A stretch of 64,000 nt of DNA, taken from NCBI GenBank assembly GCA_002269645.1, contig NIVC01001896.1, positions 80,239 to 144,238 on the forward strand, in the 5' to 3' direction. Numbering within the stretch: position 1 is the first letter of the stretch; every line of letters starts with the position of its first letter. The notes below the pieces were generated by a model. It was not told where the DNA came from. It ran no database searches and was given only the letters and a program-made list of their open reading frames with translations. The translations under genes and the position numbers were made by a program. This DNA is from Macrostomum lignano. Lineage: Eukaryota. Below are positions 1-14,556 of this stretch, one piece after another.

Positions 1-2040
1 TCTTAGTCTTCTAGCCACCTCCACCCGCTTGACCCGCGTCCGCCTTCCCGATCTTGACCTTACTGTTATCAGCGTACATGCTAACGAACACAGCCGCCTT
101 TTCGACATCCGATCTGGCTTCGCGCCCTTTGTCAGCTAAAATTTGGTTAGGCGGGCAGTATCTCTAGCTGAGTACAGTGATTTGATGGTACTCCAGGTCT
201 TCTTCCCGTCGTCGTTTTCTTTAAGGCTTTCCACATGTTCGGCCCAGAAGGACCGCTTCTTTTCCCTGATTTTAGCCTCCAGGTTCCTGTTTACCTCCAA
301 CCACTTTTCTCTGCTGACAGTCGTGCTTCTAGAGCAGTTGTCCCGCTCATTCTGCAGAGCGCTCAGTTCATCGTCCCAAAAAGGTTTGTACTTTCTCCCA
401 CTTTCTTCTTAGGGATGCTCAACTCCGCCGCCTTGACCATGGCTGCACTCAGCCCTCTGACCTCGGCTGCTAACTCGGTCCTTGGCACTTTCTCGAACAG
501 ATCATCCGCATTACGTTGGAACTCCGAGAAGTCCGCTTTCTTCCACGCCCAGTTTAGCTTGGTCTTCTTTTGCCGGATTTCTCTCCTGGTAGCCACGGTG
601 ACCAGGATGGGGAGATGGTCTGAGCCGAGACCTTCGAGGGTTTTCCACTCGCAGCGCTCCGCCAGCTCTCCCGCCGCCAACGAAATGTCCGGGACGCTGG
701 TCCGTCCTGTACGCCAATCCACGCGCGTCGCGGCTCCATCGTTTAGGATCCTGTAGTCAAATTCTTCGCACCAGGATTCCAGCTCTAAAGCCTCCCTTCT
801 GCTGTCTCTTCCTTGGTCGTCACAGCTTCCCCAGCTTCTGCTGTGTAGGTTTAAGTCGCCGAGAATCAGCTCTCTTCTGTCTGGTTTAAGCCAGCTCCAG
901 ACACTATCATCCTCCCTGTCGTCACTGCCTTCGACAGTGCGCACAGGGGGGCGGTAAACATTAGTGATGACACACCTTTCCTTCCTGTTAACGTCCACGA
1001 TCACGCGGCAGCCCTCCGTGGTAGTGCCTTTCCAGCCTGTCCAGCGCTTGAAAGGAAGATTGTGCTTGATCAGGGTGATCAGGCCTCCCCTTTAGACTTA
1101 TCGCTTCTGCGGATCTCCACCCTGTCCTTCCGGGCGGTGGTGTAGCCGGCGAAGCGGGGGTTGGCGACTCGCTGTCAAGTTTAGATTCCTGAATGACAGC
1201 CACGTCAATGTCATGCGCTTTCAGAAACCGCTCAAGCTCCACTTTCTTATTTCTAATGCCATCGGCGTTCCATTGCAGAATCCTCAGGTTTTCCCTCCGG
1301 GCGCTCGACCAGCCCTCGCCGGCCGGGTTTCTGGTCTCTTCCTTATCCACGGCGATATTATCGGTTCTGGCTCTTTCCAACTTGTCTGAGCACATCTGGC
1401 AGGTCCAAAGGCCTTTTTTAATTTCACCGTCGATTTGAGCTCTGCTGGCTCCAGTACACTTGTTATGGAACAGTTCGTCACATCTAGTGCACCGCGCAAT
1501 AACCTTAGTGACCTTGAGCTTGCCTCCACAGCCAGGCTTAGCACATCTGCTACCCTTCTCGATCCTCTCGATGCAGCGTTTTCTTCTCTCCTCAGCCGCC
1601 GCGGCATCTTCCGCCAACCAATCCTCCTGCTGAGAGCATCCGCCGCACTTCCAATCCTTCTTTCCTTCTCTCGCTTTGCTCTGGCCCGCTCTAGTCAAGC
1701 CTGTGCAGCTGCCGTGGACTTCGTTACCGCAGCCGACGCAGCGGACCGGGTTTTGGCCCCTAGTGATGTTTTTTCCACATCTGGCGCACGGGCCAGGGTT
1801 GGGTTCCACATCGCCGTCCCTGTCAAGCCGCTCAGTTCTCCAGCCTCTCCTGTCTTCCTGCGCGTTGGTAGCGGGTTTCACAGCATACCCTTCCAATCTC
1901 TTCCACCCTCTCTTATCATGGTGAACATGGTGATCCGCGTTACTCCGGGTGTTCGTATCCAAATTAGGAACTCTCATCCGCCGCGAAGAGGCCCCCAGAG
2001 TGTAGGACGAGTGTTGTTGTTGTTGTTGTGCCAGATGCAT
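1..2040 (-). mobile_element. 5' part of an APE-type non-LTR retrotransposon (I/Ingi-like): leader, 2A, PHD, PHD, AP endonuclease, linker; RT lies beyond the left edge; several 1-nt frameshifts
   Basis: ORF 988-2091 has DVEPNPGP, two C4HC3 PHD fingers and the EEP start LRILQWNADG...VAVIQESK. ORF 363-1004 continues with ITNVYRPP, ILGDLNLHSRSWG, LNDGAATR, PDISL, GSDHLPI and WKKADF. Frames are joined by single-base losses near 1156-1160, 1087-1090, 385-387 and about 140. First in-frame ATG is at 2040. Confidence 0.9.
1789..1842 (-). other. 2A-like ribosomal StopGo peptide (WRTERLDRDGDVEPNPG|P)
   Basis: Exact D(V/I)ExNPGP core at 1789-1812, in frame and directly upstream of PHD finger 1. Confidence 0.8.
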
Positions 2041-2152
2041 CGCACCTGAATCAGGGACGGTGCCCGACTCCGGGCGCTCTTCGCTGCCCAAAAAGTGACA
2101 TTGCCTCTCCGCTGCGAGAAAGACGCGGTGCCGGATATGGCCTGCTGGTTAC

Positions 2153-2285
2153 CTGGGGGCTGCTGTTGCTGCTTCATAATCATCTGCGCACTGCTTATTG
2201 ACTGCGAACAATAACTCAGCAGAATGAGCAGTGAAATGGCAACCAATTTAACTCTAAATTGGATTAACCTCGTTTTGCAGAACAT
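2153..2285 (-). CDS. Possible first exon of a secreted host protein; the retroelement would sit in its first intron
   Basis: ATG 2285, MFCKTRLIQFRVKLVAISLLILLSYCSQSISSAQ (basic then hydrophobic), donor-like CAG|GTAACC at 2153/2152. No downstream exon in the window, and a competing GTGAGA donor at 2287-2292. Confidence 0.25.
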
Positions 2286-3004
2286 CTCACCTCGGTGTGT
2301 GACGTGTGGCTCTGGTATCGGATTTGCTCTTCAAGGTGATTCCAAATTTGATTGCAAATTTTGACAGGTGGTTGTCTTAGAAAAGTAGCCTCAAAGTGAA
2401 ACCTACGGCCTGATATTTTCTTTAGAAAAATTCAAATTTAAAGAAAAACTTGACTACTTAAACTTTAGCAATTAACGAGATAAAGTCTGACTTGAGGTGG
2501 GGCAGGTCGGCTCGGCTCATTCACGGAGCGGCAGGTCAAGTGTTCAAAAATTCAACGAAACCGCTTGCTTTGAGTTGCCGCCCCCCGATAGCGGCTTCCA
2601 TGTCTTTAAGGCCCAAACACAGACAATAAAAATTTAGGAATAAACTATTTATTTGTTAAGCTCAAATTATGAGACGCCCCTGTACAGGCTGATGACAGCA
2701 TTTATTAAACCTAATTTTCAGGTTACTAAATCGTCCTAATTATCAACATTATAGGCAAGTTGGATACGGAGTCTCACAAAATCCATGTTACTTGGCCAGC
2801 TCAGGTGAAAGAGTGCAATACTAGTAAGGTTTTTACTGAGTCAGCAGAAAAACGCATTTTAGGCTGCTATTGAGAAACTCAACGACTTATTTTCGCAATA
2901 ACAAAGTATCTTTATCGAATTTGAGTAAAATCTACTTATATTTGAATAATTACTGCAAATATAGTGTCTAAATATACATAATAATAGGAATAAAATTTGA
3001 TTTC

Positions 3005-3420: not shown

Positions 3421-14556
<11,136 letters not shown>

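What the first reader, a model, noticed from the sequence alone, without database searches (positions are those of the whole stretch)
1789..2040. Viral-type 2A StopGo peptide at the N-terminus of a retrotransposon polyprotein
Seen: from ATG 2040, an 83-aa leader ends in WRTERLDRDGDVEPNPG|P and runs directly into two PHD fingers and the AP endonuclease. Known: D(V/I)ExNPGP drives ribosomal skipping in picornavirus-like viruses. 2A-like motifs occur upstream of APE in trypanosome L1Tc and in several metazoan non-LTR families. Inference: the element releases a short leader and a separate PHD-PHD-APE-RT protein starting at Pro. The upstream context (charged RLDRDG rather than LLLLSG) is atypical, so this may be a new 2A variant. 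The leader also has an internal echo (DKRGWKR / DRRGWRT).
Basis: partly seen in the sequence, partly recalled or inferred. Interest (0 to 1): 0.75.

Follow-up and report, generated by a model that had tools for sequence, protein, structure and literature searches.

The report
Ribozyme-headed retrotransposon with atypical 2A peptide
A young jumping gene, probably of a flatworm, starts with a predicted self-cutting RNA and carries a virus-type 'ribosome skipping' motif that likely frees its main protein from a short leader; the motif and its position are already known from such elements, but this copy has lost the usual leucine run in front of the motif.

Summary
The core DVEPNPGP (1812-1789, minus strand) is real and precedes two PHD fingers and an AP endonuclease. 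This layout is published (Odon 2013), and 114 of 286 fetched relatives carry such a core. Read contigs place the element's 5' end at the CAA run (2029-2012), so ATG 2040 is flank; the element's only in-frame ATG is 1977 (62-aa leader). The element's first 70 bases (2011-1942) fit a complete HDV-like ribozyme: the only descriptor hit in the window, 0 of 5000 shuffles. One relative fits at DNA level and one by back-translation; Rfam does not detect it. This is the ribozyme + 2A + single-ORF plan of trypanosome L1Tc/Ingi. The upstream context is atypical, less hydrophobic than all 102 distinct relative peptides. It appears derived from the leucine-rich class A and misses the tryptophan register of class B, so skipping is probably partial or weak. 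No activity was tested. Two 5' leaders of relatives lack any Met, which hints that 2A gives a fixed N-terminus after AUG-independent initiation. Verdict: new variant of a known kind, moderate interest.

The parts
1789..1812 (-). StopGo/2A core DVEPNPG|P; skip predicted between Gly (1794-1792) and Pro (1791-1789)
   Evidence: motif definition in PMC12846837 section 9
1813..1848 (-). Atypical upstream context RGWRTERLDRDG: charged, one leucine, Trp at 18 from the last Pro
1792..1977 (-). 62-aa leader from the only in-frame ATG inside the element; this ATG lies in the P1' strand of the predicted ribozyme
1942..2011 (-). Predicted HDV-like self-cleaving ribozyme: P1 7 bp, P2 9 bp with one bulge, P3 3 bp, 7-nt L3, P1.1 2 bp, P4 3 bp, candidate catalytic C at 1955; predicted cut 5' of C2011
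   Evidence: support from relatives; not detected by Rfam; not tested experimentally
2012..2029 (-). (CAA)6 run at the 5' junction; likely insertion target or target-site duplication
   Evidence: three relatives end in CAA-type runs
2038..2040 (-).
1837..1920 (-). Internal echo HDKRGWK (1920-1900) / EDRRGWR (1857-1837), 21 residues apart; likely an old local duplication
   Evidence: both tryptophans have counterparts in P0001
1636..1788 (-). PHD finger 1
   Evidence: PF00628, residues 85-135
1375..1551 (-). PHD finger 2 (approximate limits)
   Evidence: second PHD stretch reported without coordinates; limits taken from the weak FYVE match at residues 164-222
600..1285 (-). AP endonuclease domain; frame breaks near 1155 and 1086 in the window, where contigs of 4 of 4 runs differ by one base (likely assembly errors)
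1..599 (-). Linker after the endonuclease; the element runs off the window before the RT; further frame breaks near 400 and 150 were not checked against reads
2041..2160 (-). Flank: relic of another repeat with a degenerate HDV-like core, itself preceded by a CAG/CAA run
   Evidence: 13.6 bits, E 8.9, below threshold; diverged copies in reads

Best explanation
This is the 5' end of a young single-ORF non-LTR retrotransposon, likely Ingi-like, whose first 70 bases are predicted to fold into a self-cleaving HDV-like ribozyme and whose open leader ends in a canonical StopGo core that likely makes the ribosome skip part of the time, releasing a PHD-PHD-endonuclease-RT protein that would begin at proline. 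Shown: the boundary, the base-pairing potential, the open frame, the core, the domains. Inferred, in order: (1) the RNA is cut from a longer transcript 5' of C2011; (2) ribosomes start on the uncapped RNA inside the ribozyme, at AUG 1977 here and at a non-AUG codon in relatives; (3) the 2A site trims off the variable leader and fixes the polyprotein's N-terminus; (4) because the leucine run of class A has eroded, a sizeable share of ribosomes would read through.
For: Core exact and unique. Same position in 114 of 286 fetched proteins; 29 of 40 scored have 13 or more cysteines between core and endonuclease. The sister family P0001 (SH-aLRT 96; 45-58% identical) keeps 7 of 7 fixed core residues while 0 of the 6 preceding residues match, which points to selection on the core. 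Gly before the core Asp is the preferred state. Ribozyme: 1 descriptor hit in both strands of the window, exactly at the read-defined boundary; 3 hits in 240 kb shuffled; 0 of 5000 local shuffles. L080 fits the same topology at DNA level with different stems and a long L3 (0 of 3000 shuffles). P0001's leader is compatible in the same register (19 of 2000 shuffles; 0 of 113 other windows). Precedent: L1Tc ribozyme cuts at C1 and cap-independent translation is proposed; Ingi-1_AC 2A skips over 97%.
Against: No activity data for either signal. The context is the least hydrophobic when set against 102 peptides. Leucines at -13 to -10 go with skipping in a 3,271-peptide screen. Only 43 of 580 retroelement-associated 2A contigs scored as highly active in another screen, 56% mid-range. 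P0001 lacks the glycine before the core. Rfam finds no ribozyme at 2011-1942, and plain folding gives no unusual stability (z 0.22; it cannot model pseudoknots). My descriptor was written after I saw the sequence and was widened once for L080. 15 of 16 other 2A sites with DNA show no such fold (most are distant elements, but L001 and L005 are not), and P0138 fits only weakly (275 of 2000 shuffles). RT and RNase H are inferred from P0001 and from contig lengths of 4.1-4.5 kb.
Confidence: 0.5

Rival explanations
1. The 2A is largely decayed: ribosomes read through, the protein keeps its 62-aa leader, and the core persists as a relic, a pause or a structural cap on the first PHD finger.
For: Lost leucine run, Asp at 12 in 0 of 102; derived from class A in the tree; core alone is not sufficient and several canonical-core retrotransposon 2As were inactive; Trp register matches neither class B nor motif 4.
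Against: 7 of 7 fixed core residues kept between two families whose preceding six residues share nothing; the element looks young and intact; another relative, P0148, has a similarly charged context; 28% of viral StopGo contexts fit no defined motif.
Confidence: 0.3
2. The GWR(x)TE motif is a new upstream determinant: a tryptophan at 18-19 replaced the leucine helix and gives efficient skipping.
For: GWR and TE are kept in both sister families while the six residues next to the core are not; class B and motifs 1/4 use an N-terminal Trp; Leu, acidic residue and Gly match motif 4 in register.
Against: Only two families; Trp register differs between them (18 against 19) and one-residue shifts abolish class B activity; Trp occurs somewhere at 9-20 in 15 of 102 peptides, mostly ordinary class A ones; no further GWR-type member among the 150 best of 485 hits.
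Confidence: 0.12
3. The element borrows host ribosomes: it inserts in CAA/CAG glutamine codon runs, keeps its ribozyme open in the glutamine frame, and uses 2A to cut itself loose from the host protein.
For: Glutamine run, His, then 71-77 open codons to the last Pro in 4 of 4 elements with a short visible leader (window, P0001, P0138, L080); P0001 is annotated as an in-frame fusion to a host Shg1-domain protein; no Met in the P0138 and L080 leaders.
Against: The window copy and L080 have an in-frame stop a short way upstream, so they sit in no host ORF; the two protein models are ascertained for open frames; shared ancestry explains a shared frame; ribozyme cleavage would separate the host 5' end; L001 and L005 have in-frame Met codons.
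Confidence: 0.07
4. One reading: the element starts translation at ATG 2040 and releases an 83-aa leader.
For: The ATG is in frame and the frame is open; it could serve this one copy in an uncut read-through transcript.
Against: It lies outside the sequence that copies share and upstream of the predicted cut.
Confidence: 0.01

Closest known systems
Trypanosomatid L1Tc / ingi (Pr77 HDV-like ribozyme, 2A, single ORF with APE, RT, RNase H); PMC3185411, PMC4035085, PMC6765202 (passages), PMC3708506
   Same: Predicted ribozyme in the first ~70 nt starting with C; short leader; 2A; single ORF with APE, and in the sister family RT and RNase H.
   Different: Animal host (inferred); two PHD fingers between 2A and APE; the frame is open through the ribozyme and the ATG lies in its P1' strand; CAA-run junctions; no promoter tested.
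2A-bearing APE-type non-LTR elements of animals (Ingi-1_AC; CR1, Crack, L2, Rex1 families); PMC3708506 parts 1-4 of 6
   Same: 2A about 40-80 aa from the ORF start; PHD between 2A and APE is described for CR1-1/17/26_BF, Crack-17_BF and several sea urchin elements.
   Different: No flatworm listed in the parts read; no ribozyme mentioned there; two PHD fingers; charged upstream context.
Class A 2A peptides (Rao 2025; motifs 2 and 6 of Li 2026)
   Same: GDVE centre, Asn before PGP, Leu at 13, Arg at 11, Gly at 9; relatives are class A, as are the 2 of 3 Macrostomum rows shown from Rao's table.
   Different: No leucine run; Asp at 12 and 10.
Class B / motif 4 (WV(R/K)DLTx[acidic]G) 2A peptides; PMC12338488 passages, PMC12846837 sections 9, 10, 14
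   Same: N-terminal Trp; Leu, acidic residue and Gly in motif-4 register; Pro before Asn.
   Different: Trp one residue off motif 4 and two off class B; no DLT; described mainly from viruses, ticks and dinoflagellates.

Membership tests
StopGo/2A peptide | Core (D/G/C/N)(V/I)ExNPGP | tested here: met
StopGo/2A peptide | In frame between two coding parts, conserved position among relatives | tested here: met
StopGo/2A peptide | Measured skipping of the Gly-Pro bond | not testable with these tools
   needs a reporter assay
Class A 2A | Leucine/hydrophobic run before GDVE | tested here: not met
   1 hydrophobic residue against 2-8 in 102 peptides
Class A 2A | Gly before core Asp; descent from class A relatives | tested here: met
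   (quick tree, endonuclease part only)
Class B / motif 4 2A | Trp in fixed register (about 16 for class B, 17 for motif 4, counted from the last Pro) | tested here: not met
   Trp at 18; registers
Class B / motif 4 2A | (R/K)DLT stretch | tested here: not met
   ERLD in its place
HDV-like ribozyme | Five helices P1, P1.1, P2, P3, P4 in double-pseudoknot order | tested here: met
   own descriptor, built from recalled consensus features
HDV-like ribozyme | Catalytic C followed by a constrained A; U and G in L3 | tested here: met
   C1955 in CGAA, L3 with first U and sixth G; features named
HDV-like ribozyme | Match to an Rfam ribozyme model | tested here: not met
HDV-like ribozyme | Covariation across homologues | tested here: inconclusive
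   L080 at DNA level, P0001 by back-translation, P0138 weak; no DNA alignment possible
HDV-like ribozyme | Self-cleavage in vitro | not testable with these tools
   bench test
Ingi clade | Single ORF, no ORF1 | tested here: met
   ORF begins within the first 40 nt of the element; feature
Ingi clade | RNase H present (absent in Vingi) | tested here: inconclusive
   present in sister family P0001; this element's 3' half is outside the window; distinction
Ingi clade | RT groups with named Ingi references | not testable with these tools
   no named Ingi protein was returned by the searches; references seen only as supplement text and compared by eye

The most novel reading that the evidence does not exclude
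In this clade the 2A is an N-terminus normaliser coupled to a 5' ribozyme: the self-cut, uncapped RNA (or an uncut host transcript read in the glutamine frame of the CAA target) is entered without a fixed AUG, the ribozyme itself is kept open as coding sequence, and 2A releases an identical Pro-starting polyprotein wherever the ribosome began; the flatworm lineage does so with a leucine-free, tryptophan-based context.
Probability: 0.2. Interest if true: 0.7.

Novelty: new variant of a known kind. Interest (0 to 1): 0.42.

Why it matters
The 2A itself is expected here. Two things add value. First, the ribozyme + 2A + single-ORF plan of trypanosome L1Tc/ingi appears in a young, probably intact animal element of about 4.4 kb, from the sister clade of the Vingi elements now used as RNA-only gene writers. 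Second, why retrotransposons carry 2A is stated as an open question. Leaders of 71-77 codons that run open through the ribozyme, two of four without any Met, give a testable answer. The peptide is also a natural test of whether skipping survives loss of the leucine run.

Tried and rejected
No whole genome is held and no second copy lies in the window, so copies were compared through read contigs only. These show no substitution in the 2A codons in 8 of 8 runs, but the whole element is near invariant (0 listed differences over 900-2016; 2), so this says nothing on selection. No RNA holder is listed; contigs of two runs guessed as RNA stop at 2013 and 2025, one study, not used as evidence. Depth over the element is about 3-6 times the flank in the four runs X2, X3, X6 and X7; the tool warns that this is no copy number. 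Viral contigs gave no relatives. Rfam found nothing in 5 related loci or at the L080 5' end. I considered the signal-peptide-like frame 2330-1974 as a disrupted host exon and did not adopt it: its 3' part overlaps a repeat relic. The RNase H labels in my tree came from a crude pattern and were ignored; the tree is the quick version. Literature: searches for Macrostomum + ribozyme, Macrostomum + 2A peptide, and Ingi/Vingi + ribozyme or PHD listed no report of this element. The peptide was not found in the supplements of Rao 2025 or Li 2026. Ruminski 2011 and Kojima 2011 are not held and may already describe ribozymes or PHD fingers in animal Ingi elements. Supplements of the two preprints are closed and could list this peptide with a measured activity; file 1 of Odon's supplements was not searched.

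Full report
Observation. Translation of 2040-1789 on the minus strand gives the 83 residues and the NPG|P end described. It is the only NPGP in six frames of 64 kb, against an expectation of 0.00008 for the full core. Pfam finds a PHD finger with two stretches directly after the proline and an endonuclease domain split over two frames. The element runs off position 1 before the RT. The internal echo is real (3 of 2000 shuffles; 14 of 21 nt identical) and looks like an old local duplication.

What the element is. The best protein match is P0001, annotated from Macrostomum lignano: 45% over the N-terminal part and 58% over the endonuclease, with APE, RT and RNase H in one ORF. The host is therefore probably a Macrostomum flatworm; this is an inference. 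Twenty of 24 listed public runs hold the stretch or a part of it. In the four runs laid on 900-2900, contigs match 900-2016 with no substitution; three of the four runs give a single contig of 4.2-4.5 kb. All four differ from the window by one base at each of the two frame breaks (1086, 1155), so these are likely assembly errors. The family looks young and probably intact. P0001's element part needs about 4.4 kb, which agrees with the contig lengths.

Where it starts. Element contigs stop at 2013-2029 in 8 of 8 runs, inside a (CAA)6 run. Three different sequences lie beyond it: the window's, one with CAT repeats, and a longer CAA run in a second organism label. In run X10 the flank continues into a CAA/CAG repeat without the element. 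ATG 2040 is therefore flank. The only in-frame ATG inside the element is 1977, which gives a 62-residue leader. Relatives L001-L003 have CAA-type runs just after their ORF ends, so the run is likely target or target-site duplication.

A ribozyme at the 5' end. The first 70 nt after the CAA run (2011-1942) can form all five helices of an HDV-like ribozyme: P1 7 bp, P2 9 bp with one bulge, P3 3 bp, P1.1 2 bp, P4 3 bp, with a candidate catalytic C at 1955. My descriptor, built from recalled consensus features, gave this one hit on both strands of the window, 3 hits in 240 kb of shuffled sequence, 0 of 5000 local shuffles and 2 hits in 1.17 Mb of fetched loci. The boundary came independently from reads. 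L080, a relative at 32% to the query P0007, has the same topology with different stems right at its own CAA/CAG run, if a 20-nt L3 is allowed (0 of 3000 shuffles; background 35 in 1.17 Mb). P0001's leader peptide is compatible by back-translation with the same fold in the same register (19 of 2000 shuffles; 2 of 2000 at its 10-bp P2; 0 of 113 other windows). Against: Rfam does not detect it; plain folding is unremarkable; P0138 fits only weakly; 15 of 16 other 2A sites with DNA show no such fold. ATG 1977 lies in the P1' strand.

The 2A in its family. Of 286 proteins fetched, 114 have a 2A-like core before a cysteine-rich or endonuclease region; the others include many that begin downstream of this site. 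Among 102 distinct 20-residue contexts the common pattern is a leucine run and Ala/Ser-Gly before the core. The window peptide has one hydrophobic residue where all 102 have 2-8. It has four charged residues in the six before the core, matched by 1 of 102 (P0148), and Asp at position 12 from the last Pro, seen in 0 of 102. It keeps Leu-13 (80 of 102), Arg-11 (28) and Gly-9 (95). In a quick tree of 108 endonuclease segments it pairs with P0001 (96) inside a 10-row group (99) whose other two visible 2As are class A. P0001 has its own odd context, shares GWR and TE and 7 of 7 fixed core residues, but none of the six residues before the core. So the context is atypical and derived from class A, and the core is under selection.

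Is it active? The core alone is not enough, and retrotransposon 2As range from inactive to over 97% (PMC3708506, parts 1-4 of 6 read). Class B needs Trp at about 16, and a shift of one abolishes activity (PMC12338488, passages). Motif 4 puts Trp at 17 by my count (PMC12846837, sections 9, 10, 14). Here it is at 18, and at 19 in P0001. Leucines at -13 to -10 go with skipping (bioRxiv 10.64898/2026.06.17.732966, passages). Of 580 retroelement-associated 2A contigs, 43 were highly active and 56% mid-range (bioRxiv 10.64898/2026.09.24.754024, sections 28, 31). Partial skipping is my best estimate; near-complete read-through is the main rival.

How it likely works. A longer transcript is cut 5' of C2011, as shown for L1Tc at its first C (PMC3185411, passages). 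Ribosomes would enter the uncapped RNA at the ribozyme, as proposed for L1Tc and R2 (PMC6765202, passages). The 2A would trim the leader and leave a polyprotein starting at Pro-Cys of the first PHD finger. In four elements with a short visible leader the CAA run is read as glutamines, followed by His and 71-77 open codons to the last Pro. The P0138 and L080 leaders hold no Met, and P0001's first Met is 51 residues in. This suggests initiation without a fixed AUG, with 2A fixing the N-terminus. Read-through from host glutamine tracts is possible (P0001 is annotated as such a fusion) but is not the case for the window copy or L080, which have nearby upstream stops. L001 and L005 do have in-frame Met codons. 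All these steps are inferred.

Comparison. It works like L1Tc/ingi: 5' ribozyme, short leader, 2A, one ORF. 2A followed by PHD and APE is published for CR1, Crack and sea urchin elements, and Ingi is listed among clades with 5' ribozymes (PMC5786205, passages). Membership of Ingi is supported by architecture and by RNase H in the sister family (PMC13708176, passages), but was not tested on an RT tree. My searches found no report of this element or peptide. Two key papers were not available and the preprints' supplements are closed. Also read: PMC4035085 and PMC3774820 (passages) and PMC3894237 (part 2 of 3).

Verdict. Real motif, known placement, wrong start codon, unnoticed ribozyme. New variant of a known kind; interest 0.42.

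Noticed in passing
window 2160-2041, minus strand: A second, degenerate HDV-like sequence directly upstream of the element, also after a CAG/CAA run; weak Rfam match (13.6 bits, E 8.9) and at least two diverged copies in read contigs. Possibly the 5' part of another ribozyme-headed repeat into which the element inserted.
   Followed up: partly
L080:548-626: HDV-like fold with a 20-nt L3 that holds its own hairpin, unusual for this ribozyme class as I recall it; the contig is filed in a bacterial MAG and is likely eukaryotic contamination.
   Followed up: partly
L003:4038-4065: An HDV-type P3/L3 core cut off by the contig end, about 460 nt after the CAA tail of a related element.
   Followed up: no
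P0001 / P0137 residues 1-150: Public gene models fuse a host Shg1-domain protein in frame, through a glutamine run, to the whole retrotransposon ORF.
   Followed up: partly
P0148: A relative with a similarly charged 2A context (four charged residues before the core), suggesting that leucine loss happened more than once.
   Followed up: no
L001:4065-5104: The end of one element is followed by a CAA-type run and a second 2A-PHD start with a 232-codon open frame upstream; tandem or nested copy.
   Followed up: partly
L020:606 and 1153: Two 2A-like cores 547 nt apart, in different frames, in one distant element.
   Followed up: no
window 5393-6994, minus strand: A 534-codon frame with an alpha-macroglobulin TED domain (E 8e-26) that seems to lack the thioester cysteine motif (motif recalled); further pieces of the same gene may lie near 10527-12756.
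   Followed up: no
window 1974-2330, minus strand: An open frame with a signal-peptide-like start that crosses the flank repeat and the junction in another frame; may be chance.
   Followed up: partly
L080-L142: 63 loci of eukaryote-type retrotransposons sit in bacterial and archaeal genome records, likely host contamination.
   Followed up: no
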